Shown here in pieces: positions 1,125 through 60,950 of a DNA stretch of 64,000 bases. This DNA is from Stegostoma tigrinum (taxonomy: Eukaryota): assembly GCF_030684315.1 (NCBI RefSeq), contig NC_081375.1, positions 31,113,073 through 31,177,072 of the forward strand. Direction: 5' to 3'. The position numbers and the translations under genes were made by a program. How positions within the stretch are numbered: position 1 is the first letter of the stretch; every line of letters begins with the position of its first letter. The notes beneath the pieces are model-generated. The model was not told the origin of the DNA. It did not search any database and was given only the letters and a program-made list of their open reading frames with translations.

Positions 1125-3190
1125 GCTAGGGAGTTACAGTTGTACAGCCAGAAGACACCCTTCAGTCCTACCCTTCCATGCCAGATATCCTAAATTAATC
1201 TAGTTCCATTTGCCAGCATGACCCGTATCCTTCTAAATCCTTCCTATTCGTATACCCATTCAGATGCCTTTTGAACAGTGTCACTGTACCAACCTCCATT
1301 ACTTCCTCTGGCAGCTCATTCCATACACACACCACTCTCTTGCATGAGCAAGTTGCACCTTACGCCCCTTCTACATCTTTCTCCTCCCATCTTAAACCTA
1401 TGTCCTCTAGTTTTGGAATACCAACCCTGGGAAAAAGACCTTGGCTTGTTAGTGCATCCACGCTCGTCACAATTTTGTCAACATCTATAAGGTTACCCCT
1501 CAGCCTCTGATGCTCCAGAGAGAAAAAGAAACTCCCAACCTTTTGCAGTGGATACAGTAGACCACATTAGTGAATGTGCAAGTGAACCTGTCTGATGTGG
1601 AAAGTTCTTTTTGGTCCTTGGATGGTGATGAGGATTTTTTTGGTGGCACCATGTAGCACTTTCCACAGGGAAAGGTGCTGGGGCTAGTGGGGAATCGTAG
1701 GCCGAACCTATGCCTACCTCTTTGTAGCATACATGGAACAGTCCCTCTTCCGCAGCTACAGGGGCACCATGCCCGACCTCTTACTTCGTTACAATCATTG
1801 ACTGTATTGGCACCGGCTCGTGCTCCCATGAGGAGCTTCAGCAGTTCAACTTGACTAACAACTTCCACCCCAACCCTCAAGTTCACAAGGACCATCTCTG
1901 AAACCTCTCTTTACTTCCTGCACCTCTGTCTCCATCTCTGGTGACCAACTCAAAACTGATATCTATTTCAAGCCCACCGACTCCCAAGCTCCCCAGACTA
2001 AACCACCTCTGTTCCTGCGAAAATGCGATCCCCTACTCTCAGTTTCTCCACCTACGCCACACCTGCTCCCAAGATGGGGTGTTCCATTTCCGAACACCCC
2101 AGATGTCCTCTTATTTCAAGGAATGTAACATCCACACCTCCCCTGCCCCTGCAATCTGACCCCACAACCAAGGATACATCTCCCTCCCCACTCCTATCTC
2201 CTTCCACAGGGACCGCGCTCTCTGACTCCCTCGTCTGCTCCACACTTCCCACCAGTCCCACCACCCCCAGCACCTTTCCCTGCAACCACAGGAAGTGCTA
2301 CAACTGCCCCTACATCTTTCCCCTGACCTCCATCCAAGGACCCAAAAAACCTTACGCATCTGACAGAGATTCACCTGCACATCCGTTAATGTGGTTTACT
2401 GCATCTGCTGCTCCTCACGTGGCCTCCTCTACATCGGTGAGACCACGCGGAGGCTCAGATTCGCGACAAATGACACCTTCCAGTTGCAAACCATTTCAAC
2501 TCCCCCTCCCACTCCCACTCCCTGGATGACGTGCATCCTGGGCCTCCTCCAGCGTCACGGCGATGCCACCTGAAAACTGAAGGAGCAACCCCTTATATTA
2601 CATCTTGAGAGCCTACAACCCAACGGTCTCAATGTGGACTTTACTCGTTTCAAATTCTCCCTGACCCCAGCCTCAGCCCACAACTAACCCTCCCTCTCAT
2701 TCCTGCCTCCTTTACCTGTCCGTCTTCTCTCCCACCTATCTGCTCCACGCACCTCACTGACCAATTCCCACCACTGACTAGCTGCACTCACCTATCACCA
2801 TCCCACCTACCTTCCCTAGATCCCCCACTCCTCTATTTATTTGAGTTCCCTCCCCTCCCTCCCCCACTTCTGAAGGACCCCAACGCGAAACGTCAGTTTT
2901 CCAGCTCCTCAGATGCTGCCTGGCCTGTTGTGTTCCTCCAGTTCCACACTTATCGCAGACTCGAACATCAGCACTTCTTACTACCACCCAGGCTTTTCAG
3001 GCTGTCCACATAGCTCGAACCCTCCAACCCCAACAACATCCTTGTTAATCTTTTCTGAACCATTCCTATAGCAGGGAGACCAGAGCTGATGGCAGTATTC
3101 CACAAGTGGCCTAACCAATGTCATGTACAGGCACAACATCCCATCCCAACTCCTACACTCCATGCATCAACCAAAAAGGCAAGTGTGCTA
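1125..3190 (-). mobile_element. CR1-type LINE 3' fragment (about 1125-1535 and 2981-3190) split by a Penelope insertion
   Basis: Minus-strand LYMTLVRPLVEYCHQLWSPCYR at 2981-3163; the CR1 3' end continues at 1125-1535. Confidence 0.75.
1540..2980 (+). mobile_element. Penelope-like element (Neptune-type), degenerate, with an inverted 5' segment (~1540-1712)
   Basis: RT-thumb remnant (KPT...AIPYSQF), Cys linker FPCNHRKCYNCP, GIY-YIG VYCICCS..GLLYIGETTRRL; the minus ORF 1500-1895 repeats FPCGKCY...FTCTFTNVVYCIHCKR. Confidence 0.85.
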
Positions 3191-12330: not shown

Positions 12331-13304
12331 GGTCACTAAGCAGGCCAACATTTAATGCCCATTTCCAATTACCCTGGGAGATGTTAGCGAGATGCCCCCT
12401 CGAACTGCAACAGTCCATATGCTGCTGATACATCCACCACGTAGTGAGGCAGTTGAACATTTTAACCCAGTGACATGGAAGAAGCAGTGAGAGTTCCAAG
12501 TCCTAATGGTGGGTGGCTTGGAGAGAAACTTGCAAGGAGGTGTTCCCATATATCTGCTGCCCTTGACCTTTGAGATAATAGCAGTCACAAGTTGTAGGAG
12601 GTTTTGTCAAAGGAATGTTGGTGAGTTGCTGTATTGTGTTGATTCACACTGCTGTCACTGTATCTGTGGTGGCTCGGGTCAACGGGATGCCAAAAATAAG
12701 GCTGCTTTGTCTTAGGTAGTGTAAAGCTTTGTAAATATCATTGGAGCTGCACTTCTCCAGACAAAATTGGGAGTTCCCATTGTACTCCTGACTTGAATCT
12801 TGTCGATAGTGGACTTGTGTTAGGAAGTCAAGAGTTGAGTAATTTCTCCATTGTAGCAGAGTTACAAAGGTTGTTGGAAAAGTTGCTGCACAGGACTACA
12901 AACAAATGCTACTGTAAAAATAAATGATGCGACAACCTATGAAAATCAAGATTTGGGTCCTGACCCAAAACATCAAATAGCCTGCACCTCTGATGCTGCC
13001 TGGCTGGCTGTGATCCTCCAGCTCCACAATGTGTTATCTCAAGACCGGTCACCCTGTCACAACTTTTTAGGGAGGTTTTTCTTAAAAAAAACTTAAGGCC
13101 TGTAGGACAAAAGATACCAGTAGCACTGAAGTCTGAATGCAGCATTCAGCAAGAGTTGAGCTGAGCAGGATGAAGATAGGTCATGAAATGCAGGTTGAAG
13201 CAAGCAGTTTTAACAATTAAGATGTGGGCTTTGAGCTCAGCTTAGGTTAAATAGGAGAACACTGTGTCAGACAGTGAAGTGTGTTCTTTCAAACTGCAGT
13301 TCAC

Positions 13305-14175
13305 AGAACAATACAATGCAGAACAGGCCCTTCAGCCCTCGATGTTGCACCAACCTGTGAACTAATCTAAGCCCATCCCCCTACACTATCCCATCATCCA
13401 TATGCTTATCCAAGGACTGTTTAAATGCCCCTAATATGGCTGAGTTAACTACATTGGCAGGAAGAGTGTTCCACGCCCTTACCACTCCGAGTAAAGAACA
13501 TGCCTCTGACATCGGGCTTAAATCTATCACCTCTCAATGTGTAGCTATGCCCCCTTGTACAAGCTATCATCCTCGGAAAAAGACTCCCATTGTCCACCCT
13601 ATCTAATCCTCTAATCATCATGTATGTCTCTACTAAATCCCCTCTTAGCCTTGTTCTCTCCAATAAGAACAGACCCAAGTCCCTCAGCCTTTCTTCATAG
13701 GTCCTGCGCTCCAGTCAGGCAACATCCTGGTAAATCTCCTCTGCACCTTTTCACATCTTTCCTGTAATGGGGCAACCAGAACTGCACGCAATATTCCAAG
13801 TGAGGCCGCACTAGCGTTTTGGACAGTTGCAGCATGACATCACAGCTCCAGAAGTCAATCCCTCTACCAATAAAACCTAACACACCATAAGCCTTCTTAA
13901 CAGCACTGTCAAACTGGGTGGCAACTTTCAGGGATCTATGTACGTCGACACCAAGATCCCTCTGCACATCCACACTACCAAGAATCTTTCCATTGACCCA
14001 GTATTCTGCCTTCCTATTATTCTTCTCAAAATTAATCACCACACATTTATCCACATTGAACTTCATTTGCCACCTTTCAGCCCAATTCTGCAGTTTATCC
14101 AAGTCTCCTTGCAACATTCTTCCACACTGTCCACCACTCCACCGACTTTAGTGTCATCTGCAAACTTACTAACTC
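13305..14175 (-). mobile_element. CR1 LINE 3' portion (RT C-terminus), frameshifted
   Basis: ORFs LQGDLDKLQNWAERWQMKFNVDKC...LVRPHLEYCVQFW and LRGDLVETY...RGHSYTL; FADD motif at ~14155-14165. Confidence 0.93.
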
Positions 14176-16024: not shown

Positions 16025-16230
16025 AGTTAACAAAGTGTGGAGCTGGATGAACACAGCAGGCCAAGCAGCATCTTAGGAGCACAAAAGCTGACGTTTCGGG
16101 TGAAGGGTCTAGGCCCGAAACGTCAGCTTTAGTGCTCCTAAGATGCTGCTTGGTCTGCTGTGTTCATCCAGCTCCATGCTTTGTTATCTCGGATTCTCCA
16201 GCATCTGCAGTTCGCATTATCTCTGATACA
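16025..16230 (+). mobile_element. Short palindromic Penelope-derived element with TSD
   Basis: Arms 16028-16100 and 16114-16186 are inverted; TSD AAGTTCACCCT at 16014-16024 and 16231-16241. Confidence 0.85.
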
Positions 16231-18227: not shown

Positions 18228-18836
18228 GGTTAGCTTTTATTAATAGAGGGATCGAGTTCCGGAACCAAGAGGTTATGGTGAAGCTGTACAAAACTCTGGT
18301 GCGGCCGCACTTGGAGTATTGTGTACAGTTCTGGTCACCACATTATAAGAAGGATGTGGAAGCTTTGGAAAGGGTGCAGAGGAGATTTACTAGGATGTTG
18401 CCTGGTATGGAGGGAAGGTCTTACGAGAAAAGGCTGAGGGACTTGTGGCTGTTTTCGTTAGAGAGAAGAAGGTTGAGAGGTGACTTAATTGAAACATATA
18501 AAATAATCAGAGGGTTAGATAGGGTGGATAGGGAGAGCCTTTTTCCTAGGATGGTGACGGTGAGCACGAGGGGGCATAGCTTTAAATTGAGGGGTGAAAG
18601 GTATAGGACAGATGTCAGAGGTAGTTTCTTTACTCAGAGAGTAGTAAGGGAATGGAACGCTTTGCCTGCAACGGTAGTAGATTCGCCAACTTTAGGGTAC
18701 ATTTAAGTCGTCATTGGACAAGCATATGGATGTACGTGGAATAGTGTAGGTTAGATGGGCTTGAGATCGGTATGACAGGTCGGCACAACATCGAGGGCCG
18801 AAGGGCCTGTACTGTGCTGTAATGTTCTATGTTCTA
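18228..18836 (+). mobile_element. Young 5'-truncated CR1 LINE
   Basis: Uninterrupted ~155 aa LAFINRGIEFR...LYKTLVRPHLEYCVQFWSPHY...FFTQRVVREWNALP; tail TGTTCTATGTTCTA. Confidence 0.93.
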
Positions 18837-18845
18837 AAAGCAGTT

Positions 18846-19095
18846 CTAAGCCAACCACATTGCTGTGGGTGGGGGGGTCACATGTCGACCAGCCCAGATA
18901 AGGAAGGCAGTTTCTTTCCCTGAAGGACATGAGTGAACCAGATGGGTTTTTATTTTCCCAATCGACAATGGATTCACAGTCATCATGAGACTCTTAATTG
19001 CAGATATTTTATTGAATTTAAATTTTACCATCTACCATGGCAAGATTTGAACCTGGGTCTCTGGATTAACAGTCCATTCGGCCATTACATCCCTA
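18846..19095 (-). mobile_element. tRNA-derived SINE (second family; related copies ~10715-10935 + and ~44115-44420 +)
   Basis: Shared segments GGACTGTTAATCCAGAGACCCAGGTTCAAATC...GTCTCATGATGAC.GTGAA.CCATT...CCTTCAGGGAA between copies. Confidence 0.6.
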
Positions 19096-22551: not shown

Positions 22552-22794
22552 AAGATGACAAAATGTGGGGCTGGATGAACACAGCCGGCCAAGCAGCACC
22601 TTAGGAGCACAAAAGCTGACGTTTCGGGCCTAGACCCTTCATGAGAAAAGAAGCTTTTCTCATGAAGGGTCTAGGCCCGAAACGTCAGCTTTTGTGCTCC
22701 TAAGGTGCTGCTTGGCCGTCTGTGTTCATCCAGCCCCACACTTTGTCATCTCGGATTCTCCAGCATCTGCAGTTCCCATTATCTCTGATCACAA
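22552..22794 (+). mobile_element. Short palindromic Penelope-derived element with TSD
   Basis: 98-bp inverted arms 22553-22650 / 22654-22751 with a 3-nt loop; TSD TTTT(A/G)TGCATTCC at 22539-22551 and 22795-22807. Confidence 0.88.
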
Positions 22795-23920: not shown

Positions 23921-24119
23921 CCGTGATAATGGGAACTGCAGATGCTGGAGAATCCAAGATAATGAAATGTGAGGCTGGATGAACACAGCAGGCCCAGCAG
24001 CATCTCAGGAGCACAAAAGCTGACGTTTCCGGCCTAGACCCTTCATCAACGTCAGCTTTTGTGCTCCTGAGATGCTGCTGGGCCTGCTGTGTTCATCCAG
24101 CCTCACATTTTATCATCAT
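23921..24119 (-). mobile_element. Short palindromic Penelope-derived element
   Basis: Arms 23958-24027 / 24048-24117; flanked by A8T on both sides (possible TSD). Confidence 0.85.
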
Positions 24120-24608
24120 AAAAAAAAATGTCATTTTTGCTCCGTAAGAGGATTGGATTTGAAAGAAAATGCCCCCTGCTGGCTAAGACTGACTCTTTAT
24201 TATCAGGAAATGGTTTACACAGTTTCCACCTAAAAGTTAGCAAATCAGGCAACTTCTGAGCTGGTCTCTTAAAAAGGATAGAAATAGGTATGATACTTTA
24301 AAAGATTACCCGATGCTTATGCAAAATTGCATTCAAATTCTTAAAATTGGAATCTTATACAGCTTTTTAAATAATATATGGTTATATCATAAAGATTAGT
24401 ACTTCACGTATTTTCTTCCAAAAATCAGTGCTGTTATGTGAGTCACCATTTACACCTCTTGCTAGATTAACTGACCTGTACAAAAATAGTGATTCCATTT
24501 GCAAATAAAAAGCTGCAAGACTTTAAAATTACAAAAGTAGAATTTTAAAATTATATTCAAAGTGTAATATTTTCAATGTAATAATGCAGTAACTAATTTT
24601 GTTTTCAG

Positions 24609-25228: not shown

Positions 25229-25353
25229 CAGGGATAAGGGGAACTGCAGATGCTGGAGAATCTGAGATAACAAAGTTTGAAGCTGGATGAACACAGCAGG
25301 CCAAGCAGCATCTTAGGAGCACAAAAGCTGACGTTTCGGGCCTCGACCCTTCA
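25229..25353 (-). mobile_element. Single-arm Penelope 3' end with TSD
   Basis: Perfect 14-bp TSD AAAGAACAGTGGAT at 25215-25228 and 25354-25367. Confidence 0.85.
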
Positions 25354-25624: not shown

Positions 25625-26863
25625 GAGATAGTAGGAACTGTCGATGCTGGAGAATTTGAGATAACAAGGTGTAGAGCTGGATGAACACAGCAGGCCAAGC
25701 AGCATCAGAGGAGCAGGAAAGCTGACATTTTGGGTCTGGACCCATCTTCAGAAATACGGGAGGTGTAGGGGATTCCAAAGAGAGAGAGGGGGAAGCGGAT
25801 GGAAGATGGATAAAGGAGCAGATAGGTGAAGAGGAGACAGACGGGTCAAGGAGGCGGGATGAGACTGGTAGGTAGGAGGTGCAGGTTGGGGTTGAGGTAG
25901 GAGGAACGGATAGGTGGGACAGGTTAGGGAGGTGGGGACAAGCTGGGCTGGTTTTGGGATGCGGTCGTGGGCAGAGAGATTTTGAAGCTTGTGAAGTCCA
26001 CATTAATACCATTGGGTTGCAGCGTTCCCAAGCAAAATATGAGGTGCTGTTCCTGCCTTCAAGTGGCATCGTTGTGGCACTGCAGGAGACCCAGGATTGT
26101 CAAATCATCCAAGGAGTGGGAGGGGGAGTTGAAATGATTCACAACTGGGAGGTGCAGTTGTTTGTCACGAACTGAGCGTAGGTGTTCCACAAAGCGGTCT
26201 CCGAGCCTCTGCTTGGTTTCCCCAACGTAGAGGTGGCCATAGCGGCAACAGTCAACACAGTATACCACAGCAGATGTGCAGGTGAAACATCTGTTTAATG
26301 TGGAAGGTTTTCTTGGGGCCTGGGATGGGGTGAGGTGTAGACGCAGGTGTAGCACCTCCTGCGGTTGCAGGGAAGAGTGCCAGGGATGGTGAGGTTGGTG
26401 GGGAGTTGTAGGAACAGCACTTCATATTCCGCTTGGGAACCCTGCAGCCCAATGGCAAAATTGTGGACATCACAAGCTTAAAAAATCTCCCTGCCCCCGA
26501 CTGCATCCCAAAACCAGCCCAGCTCATCCCTGTCTCCCTAACCTATCCATCCTTTCTCCCACCTATCCACCTCAACCTCCAACTACCAGCCTCACCCTCA
26601 CCTCCTTGACCTGTCCATCTTCCCTGGACTGACCAGCCCCCACCCTAACTCCCCACCTACACACACCTTTACTGGCTCCATCCCAACCTCCTTGACCTGT
26701 CCGTCTCCTCTCCCTCTATCTGCTCCTTTATCCATCTTTCAGCCGCCTCCCCCGCCCCCTCTATTTATTTTAGAATCCCCTTCCCCATTTCGAAAGAAGG
26801 GTCCGGACCTGAAACATCAGCTTTCCTCCTCCTCCGATGGTATTTAGCCTGCTGTGTTCACCT
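25625..26863 (-). mobile_element. Penelope-like element (Neptune-type GIY-YIG end) with long inverted segment and TSD
   Basis: Minus ORF VVYCVDCCRYGHLYVGETKQRLGDRFVEHLRSV...PVVNHFNSPSHS; inverted copy ~26410-26860; TSD CTACTACTTGTTGCA at 25610-25624 and 26864-26878. Confidence 0.9.
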
Positions 26864-30275: not shown

Positions 30276-31317
30276 ATAGAATCTCTACGGTCTGGAAGCA
30301 GGACATTTGGCCCATAGACCAATGTTACAAAATCTCATTTTGGAATAGCAATTTCACTTGCTCATAACAAACTCTACGTTCCCTCTACAAACCAGCTGCT
30401 AAGTGTTTTTCCAATTACTTGAAGTCTGTTGTAACTTCTCATTTCACATGAATGTTTGTGTATTATGTCAACAGACTAATACTCACACTAACTGCAGAAA
30501 TATGGACAAAACCATGCTTTCTTTCCTCCTCTATAGCATGACTAACTGTTGTGCTAGATTAATATGACAGCAATTCTACAAGTTTGCTCCTTGTAGAACA
30601 TTTGTACTACAAATCAATACTCTAGTTGTTTCTTCCATCCAGTCTTATTCATTCATGTTAATGAATCACAACCTTAATAAAAAGCCATTTCTGAAGTTTA
30701 GATTTATGGCTTAGCAATAATTGGCCACATTCAGCGTTCTTCTGGTAACACAGTTTACATAACGATTTAATCTCTAGCTGCATAAATTGTGGCCCCTTTG
30801 TAAATGAACTAAGATGCCTTAGCTATATGAAAAAGGTCATCTATTAATTAAGTTATAAAATTTAGACTTACCCAACCTCATACAGAATTGAAACAGTGCA
30901 AAGCTCGGCTGCGGACAATGCACCTCAGTCAACCTAAGTAACATGCATAATACATTTTGGAAAGAAGTGCCCAAAGCTAGCACTGACTTATTGTACTGTT
31001 CTAAATATTTATCTTCTTCTTTCAAGATGTACAATAAAAACAGGAGTGTAACTTTGAGTCTTATGGTACTGCTTCAACTAACAAGATCAAAGTTGATCTT
31101 CTGCCTCAATTGCTCTGTCCTGCATTATTCCATCTGAAGCATCATTGCATGACAATTCAAGCTATAAATACAGCTGTAACAATGCACAATTCAAATGTGA
31201 TTCCTCATGCTTCAACTGTTCTTCCTAGTAAGAATGCTGATGTTCAAGCCTGTCCTTGCAGTAGAATTCAGATAGGTTAAAATGCTATATTAATTCCAAC
31301 ATCTACTTTAATGTATT

Positions 31318-32103
31318 CAGAGACAGTAGGAACTGCTGATGCTGGAGAATTTCAGATAACAAGGTGTAGAGCTAGATGAATACAGCAGGCCAAGCAGCAT
31401 CAAAGGGGCAGAAAAGTTGACGTTTTAGGTCTGGGCCCTTCTTCATAAATGGGGGACGAGAAGGGGATTCTGAAATAAAGACAGAGGGGTGGCGGTGAAG
31501 AGACGGACAGGTCAAGGGGGCGGGGACAGAAAAACCAAGCAGAAGCTTGGAGACTGCCCTGTGGAACACCTACGCTCAGTTCGTGACAAATGATTGCACT
31601 TTCCAGTCGCGAACCACTTCAATTCCCCCTCCCACTCCTTGGACCGCATGTCCAGCCTGGGCCTCCTCCAGTGCCACCTCACGGTTGCAAGAACAGTACC
31701 TCCTATTTCACTTGGGAACGGTGCAGCCCAATGGTATCAAATGTGGACTTCACAAGCTTCAAAATCTCCCTAACCCTGACCACATTCCAAAGACAGCCAA
31801 GCTTGTCCACTCCTCCGACCTCAACCCCTACCCACCAGCCACATCCCTGCCTCCTTGACCTGTCCGCATTCCCTGGACTGACCAACCCTCATCTACACTC
31901 CCCTTTCATGGCTCCATCCCTGCCTATCTCCTCTCTACCTATCTGCTCCCTAATCCATCTACAAGCCACCTTGCACCCCTCCCTATTTATTTCGGATTCC
32001 CCATTGCCTATTTCTGAAGGGTCCAGACCCAAAACGTCAGCTTTCCTGGTCCTCTGATGCTGCTGGGCCTGCTGTGTTCATCCAGCTCCACACTTTGTTA
32101 TCT
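31318..32103. mobile_element. Penelope-derived element with inverted termini
   Basis: GIY-YIG C-terminal remnant (EHLRSVRDK...PVANHFNSPSHS) on +; termini 31350-31490 and 31980-32103 are inverted; degenerate TSD ATCTA(C/T)TTTAAT. Confidence 0.85.
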
Positions 32104-39647: not shown

Positions 39648-39795
39648 AACATAAGAACTGCAGACACCGTAAATCAGGATTAAAAACAGAAGTTGCTGGA
39701 GAAGCTCAGCAGGTCTGGCAGAATCTGTGAAGAACAAAATCAGAGTTAACGTTCTGGGTCCAGGTTGAGCTTTTCCAGCAACATGTGCTTTTCTA
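39648..39795. mobile_element. Short Penelope-derived element (GAAGTTGCTGGAGAAGCTCAGCAGGTCTGGCAG family)
   Basis: Same family as 17725-17790, 19575-19670, 23425-23530, 40745-40857, 60814-60950 and 62855-62950. Confidence 0.6.
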
Positions 39796-40744
39796 TGAAA
39801 TCTCTAAACTATTTTAGCCATGCAATTCTCCCATGTGTCAATTTAATTATTGAATGCCACTTTGTCTGTAATTCGCAGCTGCCAAAAAGCAGAATGGTTA
39901 GCATCAGCTCTCTCCAAATGCAGAGTATGGCACCCACAGACAATCAGTTGTCCTCACATTACTAAAAGCTGACACAGCCAAAAAGTCAACCAAGCCCCCA
40001 CTAGAGGTTTACATGGTTTGAAATACCATGTTATGAGAAACAGTTGTTCTTTAGAACACAGAAATACATGGAACTCAATAAACTAGATCAGGGTCAAAAC
40101 TCAAGAAATACTTCAGAAACTAAGTCTATAAAATTCATTCCAAACGGAATTCACAATGGGGTGCAATAGATTCTTTTTAGGAACATGCTTCATTTCTGTA
40201 GAACGTCCATTATATACGTTTACTACTGATCTCCGTTTTCCTTTGAATGTTGCGAGATCAAAAAAAATGGTATCACTTATCTGTTATAACTGTTCCCCTG
40301 CCTAAATATTTGCTCAACCACGAATAAATGAAATAAACGCGTCTTTAACCAAGTACTCCAGTTCACAGTATCTCAGGAGTGATAACTGTACGACACAAAA
40401 CCCTTTGCGCCCAGGCTCAGTAAAGCACATCCTTATCTCAAGAAGAGCAACAAAAGAGTCAGTTTTTAATAACTGTCTAGAGCCTGTGAAAACAGCCTCC
40501 CTCGGCGCGGTATCTATTAGCTGGCAGTATAGGAGATTAAAAAAAAATACTGTCAAAAGGAAAATGTGTATCTACTCGGGATGAAAGAAGCGAAACTTGT
40601 TGCTTAAAACTCTAACCGGGCTTTTGATTTGAAGTTAAACCAAAATTGTTGCCTTTTCGAGGCAGGTTTATACGGCGAGGACCAGCCGAACTTGAACAAG
40701 TTGAAATCGATACCTACCATCACAACTGAAGCAAGTTCCCGAAA

Positions 40745-40857
40745 TTCTGAGGGAGGGTCACCGGACCCGAAGCGTTAGCTTTGATGTTTTTTCCCCCTTC
40801 TTCACAGATGCTACCAGACCTGCTGAGCATTTCCAGCAACTTCTGTTTTTGTTCCCG
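40745..40857 (+). mobile_element. Short Penelope-derived element in SRSF2 intron 1
   Basis: CTGAGGGAGGGTCACCGGACCCGAAGCGTTA...CAGATGCTACCAGACCTGCTGAGCATTTCCAGCAACTTCTGTTTTTG. Confidence 0.65.
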
Positions 40858-41044
40858 AGAATTCTTGACCAGCCCCAAGAAATGGCGACTCCCACAAGTT
40901 CATAAAGGAATGGGTGACAAGAGGGGTGGAGGGCGCTGAGCTTGATCGTGCCTTACTCGATCCGCCACACAAAACTTTTAGGGGAAGAGAACCAATGAAG
41001 CACGGCGATGCCGCCACCCTCCCCTCCCTTTCTCGCCCACCAAC

Positions 41045-42339: not shown

Positions 42340-42883
42340 GTGAGTGCTTAGTTCTTGAACCTGAATTCATGCGATTTCCATCATTTCCTTTAATGTTGGA
42401 AGGAATTAGTAACTTTTATTGTTTTCTTTGGAAGCTTTTTGAAACTTTCAATATAAATTTAATGTCTAACTGCCCTGAAAATCTGTAAAGGAAGTGGGTG
42501 TTTATTGATGAGTTTATCTATGAAACTGCTGATGTAGGTTTTGGATTGATAAGATGGTTTAAGTGCAGTTTAATTTGAAGTTTTCACGAGATATATTTTC
42601 ATACATTAAACCTATTGCATTTTTCAGGCTGAAGAAGGAAATGTAAAATTGTGATGCAATTTTTTTCTTTTAAAATGAAGCTTTCAAATGTATATGTGAG
42701 TGTATACAATGTGGAATAGGATCTTATCAAAGCTCTAGCTTTTCTTTGTTTTGGACTTTGTTAAGTAACAATAGATTGCTGCGCTTATCAGTTCTGAGTC
42801 TTTTTGCTGGTGTCTAAAATCCACATATTAGCGGGTTCTGGCAGATTTCATTAGGTCACGATCAAAAACGAAACCAAAGCTAA

Positions 42884-44006
42884 TCTTAGATAATAAAATG
42901 TGAGGCTGGATGAACACAGCAGGCCCAGCAGCATCTCAGGAGCACAAAAGCTGACGTTTCGGGCCTAGACCCTTCATCAGAGAAGGGGATGGGGTGAGGG
43001 TTTTGGAATAAATAGGGAGAGAGGGGGAGACGGACCAAAGATGGAGAGGAGAGTATAGGTAGGGAGGGGTTAGGTCAGTCCAGGGAAGACGGACAGGTCA
43101 AGGAGGTGGGATGAGGTTAGTAGGTAGGAGATGGAGGTGCGGCTTGGGGTGGGAGGAAGGGATGGGTGAGAGGAAGAACAGGTTAGGGAGGCAGAGACAG
43201 GCTGGGCTGGTTTTGGGATGCAGTGGGCGGAGGGGAAGAGCTGGGCTGGTTGTGTGGTGCAGTGGGGGGAGGGGATGAACTGGGCTGGTTTTGGGATGCG
43301 GTGGGGGAAGGGGAGATTTTGAAGCTGGTTAAGTCCACATTGATACCATTGGGCTGCAGGGTTCCCAGGCGGAATATGAGTTGCTGTTCCTGCAACCTTC
43401 GGGTGGCATCATTGTGGCACTGCAGGAGGCCCATGATGGACATGTCATCTAAAGAATGGGAGGGGGAGTGGAAATGGTTTGCGACTGGGAGGTGCATTTG
43501 TTTATTGTGAACCGAGTGGAGGTGTTCTGCAAAGCGGTCCCAAAACCAGCCCAGTTCGTCCCCTCCCCCCACTGCACCACACAACCAGCCCAGCTCTTCC
43601 CCTCCACCCACTGCATCCCAAAACCAGTCCAACCTGTCTCTGCCTCCCGAACCTGTTCTTCCTCTCACCCATCCCTTCCTCCCACCCCAAGCCGCACCTC
43701 CATCTCCTACCTACTAACCTCATCCCACCTCCTTGACCTGTCCGTCTTCCCTGGACTGACCTATCCCCTCCCTACCTCCCCACCTATACTCTCCTCTCCA
43801 CCTATCTTCTTTTCTCTCCATCTTCGGTCTGCCTCCCTCTCTCTCCCTATTTATTCCAGAGCCCTCACCCCATCCCTCTCTCTGATGAAGGGTCTAGTCC
43901 CGAAACGTCAGCTTTTGTGCTCCTGAGATGCTGCTGGGCCTGCTGTGTTCATCCAGCCTCACATTTTATTATCTTGGATTCTCCAGCATCTGCAGTTCCC
44001 ATTATC
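42884..44006. mobile_element. Young Penelope-derived element with ~410-440 bp inverted arms and TSD
   Basis: Arms 42888-43296 / 43538-43974; spacer encodes RFAEHLHSVHNKQMHLPVANHFHSPSHS...LGTLQPNGINVD on the minus strand; TSD ACCAAAGCTAA at 42873-42883 and 44007-44017. Confidence 0.92.
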
Positions 44007-46189
44007 ACCAAAGCTAAACTTCCTTCTCTTGCTGCAGAAATGTTGTTTTAGACACTTTGAAGCTGTGTGTGTGAGCAGTGCATAGTTTGAAAAACATTTT
44101 AACAAGTTAGGAGAGTTGATAGTCTAATGTATTATAGCCAGACTATTAACCAGGAGACCCATGTAATGCTCAAGCAACCTAAAGTTGAATGCTGCCGTGA
44201 TGTTTCAATTGAATTTTTAAAGATCTGGAGTTAAAAGTCTCATGATGAACGTGAAACCATTACTGATTGCCGGGAAAAGTCCATTTGGTTTATTAATTCC
44301 TTTTAGGGAAATAAACTGCTGTCCTTACCTGGCTTGGCTAAACGTGACTCCAGATCCACAGAAATGTGCTTGACTGCTCAATGGGCAATTAATGCTGGCC
44401 TGGCTCTCACCCCATGAATTAATAAAATTAAAGTTAACCATTTAAGATAGTTGCATACCAAGTATGTGCAGATCACTTACCTCTTCTGCTTTTCTAAAAA
44501 GAATGGTGTCTAATCACTAACAGTAGCAGTCGACACACTCAGTCACTTCTCACCTTGGCATGCCATGCTTGATCCCCACTAAAAATTATCACTTTGTCCC
44601 ATCCTGGTTATGCTCCCTACTAATGTTGCTACATTTGCTTTAATGTGTAAAAAGCCTTCTAATATATATAGGGATTGGTTTAATCTCATATGATGGTTTT
44701 TTGTATATGAATAGTTTGTAGACTTGTCATATAGCTAGAAATAAAATGGATGAAGTTATTCATTTTAGGATTGTTCAAGGTATGGATGCCTTTTAACAGC
44801 CAGAAGGTTTGTTGTCAGGGAGAGTTTGTGAGCGGGGAATAGTTAATGATGTATCAGTGGCGTTCAGAATGATAGGGAAGCCTTTATCATAGGCAAACGT
44901 GACAATATTGTGGATATGTTAGATACCTGAAGTATAGTATCATTTTAAGGGATGGCTGTGTGCAACTCACACTCAAAAGATTTTGAACCTTTTTAATTGT
45001 AATTCCTAGCAATTTAAATGAATACTATTGACAAAGGTTACACTCCCTACCCAGATCAAAAGTTGATAATATTATTTATTTCTTGGTATAACTTGCTTTT
45101 AAGCTTCATGCGTCAAGATTCAATTAAACGTTGAAGATTATTTGCAACGAAAAGTTGGTGTTAAGTTTGAGAATCTCACAAGTGCAAACTTGAAAGTACT
45201 GTAAATGGTAGAAAACTGATTTTGCCACTGTGCAGTGGCTTTCAGTACACATTGATTTTTAAACTTCTTATCCATATTTTCAACTTCATCCATAACCATG
45301 CCTTTCCTTATTTTTGTGACCTCCTCCACCCCTGTTCCTCTAACTCTTGTCTTTTTTGCATCCTCCACCCCATTCACACCAATGTTAGTAGCTGAGCATT
45401 CAGCTGTATAGACATCAAATTCTGGAATTCAAGCTTTCTGTATCATTGATTCTTTTAAAGATGTTTATTAAAACCTTTCTGTTTAAACAAGATTTTAATC
45501 ATTAATATGTCCTTTTTTTAGCTGGGTGTCAGTTTTTATCTAATTATTTACTTGTAAAATGCCTTGGAATCTTTTACTACTTTTAAATATTCCATGTACT
45601 TTCAAGTTGCTGTACCAGTGATTATTGTCAAATTTGAACCAAATGATCAGTTTTGTCTCTGTTACTGAAAAACAAAGGTTCAACAATATAAAGTTTGTTG
45701 GAAGGGATAGAATTCTCAATAAACAGACACTAGATCATACAGCTGTGTTAGTTTTCGTAATGTTGTTGGCAACATGAGTAATAGGTATGATGTGATATGC
45801 TTATAAATGTGTATGTGTGTTTTGAGGAATTAGCATGAAATAAACTTGATAGCCCTAATTCAAGTTCGTAGGATAAAACTTGTCAAGTTTGGTCGTCAGC
45901 AAAGCTGTTTGAGAAACGGAAATCTGGTACGAGTGTCTGTCATGTTAGGAATGTCTCTTGTATGTGTTTCATTCTGTGCCAAAAATGAAGAATTTATTGT
46001 TTGAATCCAGTCATACACTGGATTTGGAAGTATTTTCAATCTAGAACTTTTGAATTTCTTGACTGGATTAAAGATGAAATTTGATTGACAGCTTTAACTG
46101 CAGAGACTGAATTTACATGTCCGTAGGTATAGATCAGATTCTGCCATTAAGTGAGATTATTCATGTACGTGCATGGGGGCAATTCTGTT

Positions 46190-47595
46190 TATTAACTGGA
46201 TCTTTGTGAATGGTCATGGAAAGGCTTGGTGATTACAATGCTCTTGATGTGGCCTATGTGCACTTCCAGAAAGCATTTGATACATTGTCACACAACAGAT
46301 AACAGTAAAGTTATAGGACATGAGTTAAGAGTCAGTAGCAACATAGATAGAAAATTGTCTGAGTGGGAAATAGAGTAATAGTAGAAAGACAGTAGAAACT
46401 GCCAATGCTGGAGACTTTTGAGATAATAATGTGTAGAGCTGGATGAACGCAGCAGGCCAAGCAGCATCCAAGGAGCAGGAAAGCTGACGTTTTCAGAAAA
46501 AAAGAAGGGTCCAGACCCAAAAGGTCAGCTTTCCTGTTCCTCTGATGCTGCTTGGCCTGATGTGTTCATCCAGCTCTCCACGTTGTTATCTCCGAGTAAT
46601 AGTGGAGTTTTTTTTGGTCTGGTGATAAATATTTATAGTGGTGTTCCCCAGGAGTTGGTATTAGAATTCTTCCTTATCCTGATGTATATTAAAGATCTAT
46701 AGCTTGTTCACTGGGGAAATTTACATGTTTGTAGATGACATGGAACTTGGAAGAATTGTAAACGGTGAGTGGGATAGAGTAGTATTCCAAAAGGGCATAG
46801 GCAACTTGGTTTAATTTGCAGTTGACAACTAATGTCGAGAAATGTGAGGTGATGCATTTTGGTCAGAAGAACATCGAAACACAATGGCACAATTCTAAAG
46901 TGGGTGCAGAAGCAGAGGAACCTAGGTATATATGTGTGCTAATCACTTAAGTTAACATGACAAGTTGAGCAAGCATTTAATAAAGCATAAAGAATCATGC
47001 ATTTTATTAAAAGGGGCATAGAGTACAAAAACAAGGAAGGTAGTGTTGAACTTGAATAAGACACTTGTTAGACCTCAGCTGGAATATTGTGCACAGTCCT
47101 GGGAACCACATTGCTGGAAGGATGTGAACGCATTGGATGGATTTCAGAAGTTATTAATGAACATGGTTCCAGAGATGAGAAGTTTCAGGTGTGAGGATAG
47201 ATCGAAGAGTTTGGAACTCTTCTCCTTGCAGAGAAGAAGGCAAGGAGGGAATCTGATAAATATTTTCAAAATCATGAGGTGCTAGGTAGAATAGACAGAG
47301 AAGCCTATCAAGAATTATGAGCCACAGATTTAGTAATTTGCAAAAGAAGCAAATAAGTGTTTGCTCACAGTGAGTAGTTAGGGTATGGAATGCGCTGCCT
47401 GGAAGTGTGGTGGAAGCAGGCTCAATTGTACCATCCAAGAGGAGTTTGGATGATTATGTGGATAGAAATAATGTGAAGTGTGTGGGTAGAGAAAAGCAGG
47501 AGATTGGCAGTTGGTATTGAGACTCATCTGAAGAGCTAATGCAGACATGATGGGCCAAATGGCCTCATTCTGTGCCATAACACTTCTGTGATTGT
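46190..47595 (+). mobile_element. Degenerate CR1 LINE (RT region to 3' end), interrupted by a Penelope insertion
   Basis: DV.Y..FQKAFD, SGVPQ, F(V)DD and LNKTLVRPQLEYCAQSW remnants. Confidence 0.85.
46383..46593 (-). mobile_element. Short palindromic Penelope-derived element nested in CR1
   Basis: Inverted arms ~46420-46490 / 46520-46592; TSD GAGTAATAGT at 46373-46382 and 46594-46603. Confidence 0.85.
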
Positions 47596-55994: not shown

Positions 55995-56745
55995 AAATAG
56001 GGCTAAGGGTCAATAAATCTCCTGGACCTGATGGTTTGCATCCGAGTATTTTAAAGGGAGTAGCTGCAGAGATAATGGAAGCACTGGGAGTTTTTAGATT
56101 CTGAACAAAAAAAAACTGAAGAATTGGAAAGCAGCCAATGTAACAACCATTATTTAAAAAGTGAAAAAGACAAAAAGCTGATAACAATAGTTATGTCACA
56201 AAAAGTTAGCATCCAAATTCAGGTAGTAGCGAAACCAAATTTACTGTTGGCTGTTAATTTAATGGGAACAATGTATAAAAATAAGGAAGTCTTGCTAAAA
56301 GTATACAGAGCATTCATCAGACTGCAGCTCAAATATGTGCTCCTGAGATGCTGCTTGGCCTGCTGTGTTCATCCAGCTTCACACTTTGTTATCTTGGATT
56401 CTCCAGCATCTGCAGTTCCCATTATCCCAGCTCAAATATTGTGAACAGTTTTGGCTCCCTTAACTAAGGTGAGATACAGTAGCATTGGGTGCAGTCTGAG
56501 ACAGTCAATCTAGGTTTATTTCAGGTATGGAGGGATTTTCTTGTGAGAAGAATTTGACTACATTGGGCTTGTACTCATTGGCAATTAGAAGATTGGGAGG
56601 AGACCTTACAGAAATATCAAAGATTCTTAGGGGCTTGAAAAGGTAACATAGAAAAGATTGTTTCCCTTTTTAGGAGAGTCAGAAGGCATGATCTCTTGAG
56701 CTGGGGAATTGCCTGTTTAAGACAGATGAGGAAGTTTTTTTATAT
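55995..56745 (+). mobile_element. CR1 LINE fragments
   Basis: NKSPGPDGLHP.ILK, ANVTT..F and YKNKEVLLKVYRAFIRLQLKYC remnants. Confidence 0.8.
56337..56427 (+). mobile_element. Single-arm Penelope 3' end nested in CR1, with TSD
   Basis: Perfect 12-bp TSD CAGCTCAAATAT at 56325-56336 and 56428-56439; splits the CR1 RLQLKY|C motif. Confidence 0.87.
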
Positions 56746-59049: not shown

Positions 59050-59870
59050 GGAGGTTGTAGACATGCTTACTGAGCTGTTGGGTTTGGTTGCAGACATTTT
59101 GTCACCCTGCAAGGTAACATTGTCAGTGTGACTCCAGTGAAGCGTCGGTGTTCTATCCTGCTTGTTATTTATATGCCTCAGTTTGTTGGGGTGCTTGGTA
59201 CCACTTCCGGTGCTGTTTCTCAGTGGTTAGTACTTTAATCACCCTACTGAAAGTCAAGGACATTTCAGACATGACCACAAGACTACTTGGAACCCTAGGT
59301 ATCAGTGTAACCCACAAACCAACAACCACCCTACAACAACTGCTGACAAACGTCAAGGATCCCATACCCAAAACCAATGTAGTATACAAAATACCACGCA
59401 AGGACTGTGAGAAACACTACATAGTCTAAACTGGAAGGAAACAGACAATACGGATACACGAACATGAACTAGCCACCGAGAGACACGACCAATTCTCACT
59501 TGTCTCACTATATACTGATAACGAGGGACACAAATTTGTCTGGGACAATACATCCATAATCTCAGAAGCCAAACAGAGACATGGCAGAGAATTCCTAGTG
59601 GCCTGCTATTTTAACTGGAACTCCATCAACAAACACATTGAATTAGACCCAGTGTACAAACCACAGAGAAACTGAATCAGAAGTGGTACCAAACACCCCA
59701 ACAGACTGAGGCATGTAAATAACAAGCAGGATACAACACCAGTGCTTCACCGCAGGTACGCTGATGATGTTGCTGAGCAGGGTGACGAAACGTTTGCAAC
59801 TAAACCGACTGGTTTGGCGAGCATGTCTGCAACCTCATCCACAACCTGAGCCTAAACATCTTTTCAAACT
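59050..59870 (+). mobile_element. Penelope-like element (Poseidon-type GIY-YIG end) with inverted 5' segment and TSD
   Basis: SDMTTRLL..LGISVTHKPTTTLQQLL..VKDPIPKTNVVYKIPRKDCEKHYIV*TGR...RIHEH; 59050-59220 is inverted relative to 59675-59840; TSD TTACATGAATCT at 59038-59049 and 59871-59882. Confidence 0.9.
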
Positions 59871-60071: not shown

Positions 60072-60813
60072 GTCAGTTTCATTTTTCCGAAATGTGTTGT
60101 AGGTATATATAAATAGGAAGTCCGCTGCTGAGATGTTTTATTCCATTCTCCAGCATCTGCAGTTCCCATTATCTCTGATAGTTAGAGTTCTGACTGTTTT
60201 GGTACTTCAGAGCTTTTTCTTTTATAGCTTAGTAATTTTCAAAATTTCTTTCTTGATTGCAAGAAGCAGACCTCATTGTCCAAAATGCTGCATATATCAT
60301 CCATAACATTTCTCATTGGATATCGCAGGAGTGTCGTTAGGAACTAGTGAGAGGACCCATTTTTGAGTTTCAGAACAGAATTGGATGATTATCAGAAGCA
60401 GAAAAAGTATCATGGATATAAGGAAAAGGCTAGGGGCGAAGGCACAAATGTAATTTCTCTTGCAGAAACCTGTCACAGGCATGAGAGGCTGGATGCCTCC
60501 TCCTGTACTACAATCATGTATGATTTTATTCTTGACTATCTTCATCTACTATACTGATCCTGAATTTTCAGTTTTGTTAAATATGTATTTGGCCACACTG
60601 TCTAGCCTCCACATTTTGAGTACTCCTCATGCCTCCTGGTTTTTCAAATGACATATTTTTGCCAGGTCATTGACCCCCATTAGCTTCTTCAGTGTTGATC
60701 TTGACAAATATTTCCAGATTTTCATCCCCACCTTTACATGCAGAACAGGTCTTTGTATATTCTTACAGGTGCATGACATTAATGGAGTATGGAATGCAAC
60801 AAGAATGCTTAAA

Positions 60814-60950
60814 CTAAGTTTCAGGAAAAGCTCAGCAGGTCTGGCAGCATCTGTGAAGGAAAAGAACTAAGTTAACGTTTCGGGTCCAGACTTGCTGAGC
60901 TTTTCCTGCAACTTTGTTTTTGTTCCTGATTTACTGCATCCACAGTTCTT
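60814..60950 (+). mobile_element. Short Penelope-derived element with internal inversion and TSD
   Basis: AGGAAAAGCTCAGCAGGTCTGG / CCAGACTTGCTGAGCTTTTCCT; TSD AAGAATGCTTAAA at 60801-60813 and 60951-60963. Confidence 0.75.

What the first reader, a model, noticed from the sequence alone, without database searches (positions are those of the whole stretch)
42884..44006. Palindromic Penelope insertions: a recurring self-complementary architecture with a fixed second-arm start
Seen: at least seven insertions of one Neptune-type Penelope family are a complete 3' end plus an inverted duplicate of the same 3' sequence, each flanked by a 10-15 bp TSD (clear in five; degenerate at 31318 and only A8T at 23921). 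They are 16025-16230, 22552-22794, 23921-24119, 25625-26863, 31318-32103, 42884-44006 and 46383-46593. In six of the seven, the inverted arm begins at nearly the same point (...TT(G/A)TTATCT, about 35-45 nt inside the 3' terminus), although arm length ranges from ~70 to >400 bp. Known: Penelope elements often carry inverted 5' pLTR segments, whereas L1-type twin priming inverts without duplicating. Inference: insertion uses two priming events, one at the RNA 3' end and one at a defined internal site or on a second or processed RNA. This would produce MITE-like hairpin retroelements at high density in this genome.
Basis: partly seen in the sequence, partly recalled or inferred. Interest (0 to 1): 0.7.

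Follow-up and report, generated by a model that had tools for sequence, protein, structure and literature searches.

The report
Twin-primed Penelope palindromes, one tail each
These mirror-image inserts are real copies of a known kind of jumping gene (a Penelope-like retroelement) in an already described layout, and their very regular ends suggest that the element likely copies one RNA twice, once from each side of the cut DNA, starting at two fixed points inside the RNA.

Summary
All seven palindromes exist and have target-site duplications (TSDs; one weak). They belong to a huge RT + GIY-YIG Penelope-like family with a Neptune-type linker. The layout (inverted copy, 30-40 bp tail at one end) is published, and the scan found it before on other shark DNA.

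Two corrections. The 'complete 3' end' is not an RNA end: in tandem copies the tail runs on into the ORF start. The tail-less arm is often the long, ORF-bearing one.

In 1.22 Mb of the same genome, 3' ends fall at two sites about 33-36 nt apart. 62 of 62 TSD-backed pairs have one tailed and one tail-less arm (72 of 74 in other loci). The arms share length class and rare variants. TSDs are mostly 14-16 bp, with the same base preference on both sides. Short copies stop at a wall about 30 nt upstream of the predicted hammerhead cut.

Best model: a double-strand cut primes two reverse transcriptions on one RNA, one at each internal site; short palindromes are run-offs to the RNA 5' end. Not a MITE family: 41 of 41 centres differ.

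The parts
42873..42883 (.). Left TSD of the main element (11 bp exact; 15 bp with one mismatch)
42884..43539 (-). Long arm: end of the GIY-YIG ORF, 3' UTR/pLTR, ends at the proximal site (no tail)
43318..43539 (-). C-terminal 74 aa of the PLE ORF (endonuclease end), open
   Evidence: 95-100% identity to the listed top genomic matches
42953..42980 (-). Minimal hammerhead motif (CUGAUGA-A-stem II-GAAACGUC), left arm
   Evidence: motif type as in PMC4209133; no Rfam hit at gathering score
43538..44006 (+). Shorter arm: 3' UTR/pLTR plus tail, ends at the distal site
43848..43854 (+). TATA-like TATTTAT, 62 nt upstream of the predicted ribozyme cut in the youngest subfamily (function inferred)
43882..43909 (+). 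Minimal hammerhead motif, right arm (one stem II change)
43972..44006 (+). Tail (about 33-35 nt) between the proximal and distal TTATC sites
44007..44017 (.). Right TSD of the main element
16025..16230 (.). Short palindrome: tail-less arm left, tailed arm right; TSD 11 bp
22552..22794 (.). Short palindrome, both arms stop at -29; TSD 13 bp (1 mismatch)
23921..24120 (.). Short palindrome: tailed arm left; TSD A8T (weak)
25625..26863 (.). Long palindrome: tailed ORF-bearing arm left (- strand); right arm ends about 20 nt short of the proximal site; TSD 15 bp
31313..32103 (.). Long palindrome: tailed short arm left, tail-less ORF-bearing arm right; TSD 12 bp (1 mismatch)
46383..46593 (.). Short palindrome: tailed arm left; TSD 10 bp
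25229..25353 (-). One-armed tailed copy of the same family, starts at -24; TSD 14 bp
56337..56427 (+). One-armed tailed copy of the same family; TSD 12 bp

Best explanation
These are insertions of an endonuclease-bearing Penelope-like retroelement, each likely made by two target-primed reverse transcriptions from the two ends of a staggered cut, one starting at a distal and one at a proximal site inside what is likely one RNA molecule. Steps: (1) inferred: the GIY-YIG protein, probably a dimer, nicks both strands about 14-15 bp apart (shown: TSD length, same base preference on both sides). (2) inferred: each 3' end primes at one of two internal TTATC-marked sites about 33-36 nt apart, helped by 1-4 nt of pairing (shown: bimodal ends, tail continues into the ORF, one arm of each kind in 134 of 136 pairs). 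(3) inferred: both cDNAs come from the same site pair on one RNA (shown: shared length class and rare variants). Priming in the 5' leader runs off at the RNA start about 30 nt before the hammerhead cut and gives the 130-250 bp class; priming in a downstream tandem unit gives the long class. (4) inferred: the two cDNA ends are joined head to head by end joining (shown: small overlaps or short fillers, all centres different).
For: Ends bimodal: 127 of 250 at 1-27 nt after the anchor, 115 at 48-73, 6 in between, 2 read through. 62 of 62 TSD-backed pairs are tail + no tail against 50% expected, p=2e-19; 72 of 74 in loci chosen in other ways, 2 with no tail, 0 with two tails. Tail runs into the ORF start in 7 tandem copies. 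Of 60 resolved pairs the tail-less arm reaches further 5' in 29, the tailed arm in 21, 10 equal, so both arms need an RNA template. 41 short/short, 19 long/long, 0 mixed, p=5e-16. Rare alleles shared by the two arms: 19 against 5.2 (max 17 in 2000 within-subfamily permutations). 64 of 84 perfect TSDs are 14-16 bp; A at -7 outside the TSD in 53 and 49 of 84 on the two sides; microhomology mean 1.67 (75 proximal ends) and 2.26 (62 distal ends) against 0.62-0.65. 43 of 247 copies stop in the 4-nt bin -32..-29, 8 in -80..-37, 7 around the cut. PAc in vitro cuts and extends both strands and starts at two internal sites that bracket the tail (PMC11167929).
Against: No biochemical or RNA-end data here; the RNA start is inferred from DNA, and the test for a cap-derived G was inconclusive. 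Shared rare alleles could also come from two RNAs of one source locus or from gene conversion between the arms; the own partner is the strictly best match in only 9 of 62. 126 of 250 ends were not in TSD-backed pairs, and some are true one-armed insertions of either type, so double priming is not obligatory. Two tail-less/tail-less pairs with good TSDs exist; L253 may be a mixed long/short case. PAc initiation was reported as not homologous to the cut DNA, whereas short homology is enriched here. D. virilis Penelope has a TATA-less internal promoter and an intron ending at the hammerhead (PMC2377424, PMC4209133), so the wall need not be a TATA-driven start.
Confidence: 0.62

Rival explanations
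1. Twin priming on two separate RNA molecules held by an asymmetric dimer (one subunit set on the distal site, the other on the proximal site), both usually from the same source locus.
For: Explains the one-tail rule and avoids one RT having to displace the other's cDNA; PAc is predicted to be a dimer (PMC11167929). Sharing of rare alleles is significant but modest.
Against: 0 of 60 resolved pairs mix a short and a long arm; two independent RNAs, each with a leader and a downstream site pair, should mix often unless the two are bound in register.
Confidence: 0.2
2. Single priming followed by fold-back or self-priming: the first cDNA snaps back on a palindrome and is copied as DNA, giving the inverted arm (related to the self-priming proposal in PMC3846280).
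For: Some centres are palindromic overlaps in hammerhead stem II (10-12 nt in pairs 38, 43, 57); it would explain shared variants and length class.
Against: A fold-back copy cannot reach further 5' than its template and cannot add a tail it does not hold, yet the tail-less arm is the longer one in 29 of 60 pairs and 12 of 19 long pairs. Both outer junctions show microhomology to the template and the same target preference.
Confidence: 0.08
3. Both arms are primed at the distal site and the tail is later removed from one side by endonuclease resolution of the intermediate (the suggestion in PMC8557442).
For: Gives a strict one-tail rule by construction; the D. virilis endonuclease needs the tail for recognition (as summarised in PMC11167929).
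Against: Proximal junctions carry excess template-target microhomology (1.67 against 0.62), as expected of priming; PAc starts at both sites in vitro; tail-less one-armed copies with clean TSDs exist.
Confidence: 0.07
4. A self-propagating MITE- or SINE-like hairpin family amplified from master copies.
For: 41 of 62 pairs are 128-243 bp between the TSDs and very abundant.
Against: 41 of 41 centres differ; TSDs run from 11 to 17 bp; the ends are unequal; the same ends occur on 0.4-3.6 kb ORF-bearing copies; short copies lack the sequence beyond the tail that PAc needs in vitro.
Confidence: 0.03

Closest known systems
EN+ Penelope-like insertions with inverted pLTR and 30-40 bp tail (Craig et al. 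2021 PMC8557442 Fig. 2; Adineta vaga Pen2a, PMC3846280; passages read)
   Same: [quoted passage not shown]
   Different: Those passages describe the tail as optional. Here it is counted: one tailed and one tail-less arm in 134 of 136 pairs, on either the long or the short arm, with two coupled size classes.
PAc (Poseidon of Anolis carolinensis) in vitro, Frangieh et al. 2024 PMC11167929 (main text and start of methods read)
   Same: Both strands cut and extended; two internal RT start sites that bracket the tail; RNA continues past the sites into the ORF; hammerhead cleavage not required.
   Different: Different clade (this family has the CX4CxxC linker); here the sites lie before the first ATG rather than 111-118 nt inside the ORF; PAc work did not test coupling of the two sites within one insertion and reports no primer-template homology.
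[quoted passage not shown]
   Same: Core with an extra base between positions 9 and 10.1 and a palindromic 15.2-16.2 pair; they saw dual motifs 100-700 bp apart on opposite strands.
   Different: They propose ribozyme-cut or circular RNA as template; 5' ends here pile up about 30 nt before the predicted cut, not at it.
L1 twin priming
   Same: Both target nicks prime cDNA on one RNA; inverted 5' part; variable TSD; microhomology at the centre.
   Different: L1 primes once at the poly(A) tail and once at a variable internal site and inverts without duplicating; here both sites are fixed, internal, 33-36 nt apart, and the same sequence is copied twice.
Non-LTR retrozymes (bioRxiv 10.64898/2026.07.22.740005; abstract, introduction and part of methods read)
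   Same: Short non-coding, hammerhead-bearing derivatives of PLE pLTRs.
   Different: Retrozymes are head-to-tail tandem families; these are head-to-head and each built anew. Rare head-to-tail dimers do occur here (22 exact hits).

Membership tests
EN+ Penelope-like element | Single ORF with RT and C-terminal GIY-YIG endonuclease | tested here: met
   725-767 aa open frames in L067, L068; RVT_1 E 1e-6 to 1e-4 and GIY-YIG E 0.001-0.006, both below Pfam's curated cut-offs; DKG and YIDD motifs seen directly
EN+ Penelope-like element | [quoted passage not shown] | tested here: met
   VVYCIHCTRCGFLYIG...AEH...ANH in L067-L070; definition from PMC8557442
EN+ Penelope-like element | Partial tandems forming pLTRs | tested here: met
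   pLTR + tail directly before the ORF start in L088, L093, L094, L098, L099, L106, L114
EN+ Penelope-like element | Inverted 5'-truncated copy and 30-40 bp tail | tested here: met
EN+ Penelope-like element | Hammerhead motif in the pLTR | tested here: met
   Core motif by sequence; no Rfam hit at gathering score; stem I is only about 2 bp; activity not tested
Neptune clade | CX2-5CxxC linker between RT and endonuclease (shared with Nematis) | tested here: met
   PCNRRKCYTC in L067-L069
Neptune clade | RT groups with named Neptune elements in a tree | not tested
   No hit among the 120 listed is named Neptune or Nematis, so no reference was on hand; PMC8557442 finds Neptune paraphyletic
MITE / DNA transposon | Fixed short TSD | tested here: not met
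   11-17 bp among 84 perfect TSDs
MITE / DNA transposon | Equal terminal inverted repeats and copies of uniform internal sequence | tested here: not met
   One-sided 26-46 nt overhang in 49 of 50; 41 of 41 centres differ
L1-type twin-primed insertion | Inversion without duplication, poly(A) end | tested here: not met
   Same 3' sequence on both arms, no poly(A)
Non-LTR retrozyme | Head-to-tail tandem units each with a hammerhead | tested here: not met
   The seven insertions are head to head

The most novel reading that the evidence does not exclude
Penelope-like elements integrate by coupled twin priming: one protein dimer makes a 14-15 bp staggered cut and hands the two DNA ends to two fixed start sites 33-36 nt apart on a single RNA, so every two-armed insertion has exactly one tail. 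The very many short palindromes are 'strong-stop'-like run-offs that record the element's transcription start at the front edge of the hammerhead. The genome is then a ready-made in vivo read-out of the PLE mechanism.
Probability: 0.5. Interest if true: 0.6.

Novelty: new member of a known kind. Interest (0 to 1): 0.4.

Why it matters
How Penelope-like elements form their inverted repeats and one-sided tail is named as an open question in PMC8557442, and PMC11167929 leaves the steps after initiation unvalidated. The counts here turn it into three sharp predictions for the existing in vitro system: the two nicks of one target take different start sites, both arms come from one RNA, and leader-primed products end about 30 nt before the ribozyme cut. 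Practically, these inserts (about 160,000 TSD-backed palindromes by extrapolation from 62 in 1.22 Mb) should be annotated as PLE stubs, not as MITEs or conserved hairpins.

Tried and rejected
Rfam scan of the window: 0 hits at gathering score. Pfam found nothing in the 74-aa window fragment. A first, too permissive end-mapping drifted into flanks and was discarded (replaced). Cap-derived G at the wall: G 2,439, A 805, templated T 74,515 exact matches, but in the 30 G loci read the G is mostly explained by the partner arm or the TSD: inconclusive. Ribozyme cut as the 5' end: no peak (7 of 247 within -4..+3). Splice acceptor at the wall as in D. virilis: no AG before -32 and no shared upstream exon in the short copies read: disfavoured. 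A special RNA 3' end about 70 nt past the tail: head-to-tail joins there number 22, but two control positions gave 4 each, which fits microhomology-guided template jumps. RNA folding of the pLTR-tail region: no unusual stability, z 0.90. Sequencing runs: no RNA holder listed; contigs of four guessed-RNA runs with small word shares cannot show starts and were not used as evidence. Literature: no paper for 'Penelope + shark genome + Neptune' or 'Penelope-like elements + target-primed + cryo-EM' from 2023; 'Penelope + twin priming' gave 3 listings, none on PLE mechanism by title or abstract start. Pyatkov 2004 was not held, and Arkhipova 2006 and Evgen'ev and Arkhipova 2005 were not read; they or supplements of the papers read may already state the one-tail rule.

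Full report
OBSERVATION. The seven insertions named are real inverted repeats, each between TSDs of 9-15 bp; the one at 23921 is only A8T. Six tail-less arms end at a proximal TTATC(T); 25625-26863 ends about 20 nt further in. The main element, 42884-44006, has an 11-bp exact TSD, a long minus-strand arm carrying the last 74 codons of the ORF and no tail, and a shorter plus-strand arm with the tail.

FAMILY. The 74-aa fragment gave 193,277 first-look candidates in G000. Long copies encode RT, a PCNRRKCYTC linker and a GIY-YIG domain with the CCHH motif (Pfam hits below curated cut-offs). By PMC8557442 (passages) that linker marks Neptune and Nematis; no tree was built. The closest named proteins are from sharks. 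A minimal hammerhead core lies in the repeated end, and one 31-mer of it occurs 74,515 times exactly.

THE '3' END' IS INTERNAL. In seven near-full-length copies the tail runs straight on into the ORF's 5' end, with an ATG about 40-45 nt later. In a tandem transcript both end points are therefore internal. This matches PAc, where RT starts at two internal sites that bracket the tail and both strands are cut and extended (PMC11167929, main text read).

TWO SITES. I sampled 1,224,000 bases: 264 kb around and including the window, and 960 kb at arbitrary places on other contigs. A 19-nt anchor gave 250 ends and 0 in shuffled sequence. Ends are bimodal: 127 at 1-27 nt after the anchor, 6 at 28-47, 115 at 48-73, and 2 read on into the ORF. 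Both modes sit just after a TTATC motif; the motifs are 33 nt apart.

ONE TAIL PER PAIR. Of 88 head-to-head candidates, 62 passed a TSD score that mismatched flanks reach in 1 of 300 trials. All 62 have one tailed and one tail-less arm (50% expected, p=2e-19); the 26 without TSD support split 16 to 10. In five other sets of loci, chosen by ORF or hammerhead match, 72 of 74 follow the rule, 2 have no tail and none has two (a few loci overlap, so some pairs may count twice). A family-blind search of the same 1.22 Mb found 58 TSD-flanked inverted repeats: 49 of 50 of this family and 8 of 8 others have a 26-46 nt overhang on one side.

BOTH ARMS NEED RNA, PROBABLY THE SAME ONE. Among 60 resolved pairs the tail-less arm reaches further 5' in 29, the tailed arm in 21, 10 are equal. 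That excludes simple fold-back as the general route. 41 pairs are short/short, 19 long/long, none mixed (p=5e-16). Of the 2 unresolved, one is long/long split by an unrelated insert and one a short tandem. The arms of one insertion are 87.6% alike against 78.4% between insertions, and share 19 rare alleles against 5.2 in within-subfamily permutations (max 17 of 2000); the own partner is strictly best in only 9 of 62. Two RNAs from one locus, or gene conversion, are not excluded. All 41 short centres differ, so each was built anew.

TARGET SIDE. 84 perfect TSDs are 11-17 bp, 64 of them 14-16. The flanks show the same preference on both sides (A at -7 in 53 and 49 of 84, A at -3 in 42 and 45), as expected if one enzyme makes both nicks. 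Template-target overlap averages 1.67 nt at 75 proximal ends and 2.26 at 62 distal ends, against 0.62-0.65 by chance, which points to priming at both.

THE 5' WALL. Measured from the predicted ribozyme cut, 43 of 247 copies stop at -32..-29, 8 in the 44 nt before -36, 7 around the cut, and 74 run through the 100 nt examined. In 30 loci picked only by the exact hammerhead 31-mer, 6 stop at -31..-33 and 24 run on through the 70 nt printed, so the wall is not an artefact of old subfamilies. Five of seven near-full-length copies begin at or downstream of -26. A TATA-like TATTTAT lies at -62. I infer an RNA start near -32; this is not shown, and the cap-G test was inconclusive. D. virilis Penelope has a TATA-less internal promoter and an intron ending at the hammerhead (PMC2377424 passages; PMC4209133), which is a caution.

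MECHANISM. Shown: geometry, two end sites, one-tail rule, coupled arm lengths, TSD size, symmetric target preference, unique centres. Inferred: staggered double cut by a dimer, two primings at the two sites on one RNA, run-off to the RNA start (short class) or random truncation (long class), end joining at the centre. One-armed copies of either type with clean TSDs exist, so the second priming can fail. Confidence 0.62; two RNAs on an asymmetric dimer 0.2; fold-back 0.08; tail removal by endonuclease 0.07; MITE-like family 0.03.

KNOWN AND NEW. [quoted passage not shown] I found no paper that counts the one-tail rule or the coupling of arm lengths, in six searches; key older papers and all supplements were not seen. 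The scan's own notes hold 67 similar findings in at least 12 genomes; they are not evidence. Two of them mention a pile-up at the ribozyme cut, which I do not see here.

VERDICT. Real; a new member of a known kind. Interest 0.4, for the testable mechanistic regularities rather than the shape.

Noticed in passing
window 59050-59870: A different PLE family (GIY-YIG end without a visible CX4CxxC linker in the frames read, Poseidon-like) with the same layout: 183-nt inverted arms, 34-nt overhang on one side, exact 12-bp TSD.
   Followed up: partly
window 60814-60950 (also 39652-39792, 40743-40858): A third short palindromic family with a hammerhead-like GAAACG motif and similar tail; 60814-60950 has a 10-13 bp TSD and about 31 nt of one-sided overhang.
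   Followed up: partly
L197-L218: 22 exact head-to-tail joins in which sequence about 70 nt past the tail is joined to the -30 wall, giving retrozyme-like dimers; most TSD-backed cases still have one tailed and one tail-less outer end.
   Followed up: partly
window 2244-2983 and 1545-1691: Older, diverged PLE fragments of the same superfamily (about 73% identity to the main element).
   Followed up: no
window 13302-13881 and 18229-19009: Other repeated segments of 580-600 bp that match elsewhere in the window and are unrelated to this family; not identified.
   Followed up: no
window 60145-60180: An isolated tail fragment of the main family, 29 nt identical to the tail of 42884-44006.
   Followed up: no
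L057-L060: Four identical copies with identical flanks on small contigs: a segmental duplication or assembly redundancy; three were dropped from counts.
   Followed up: no
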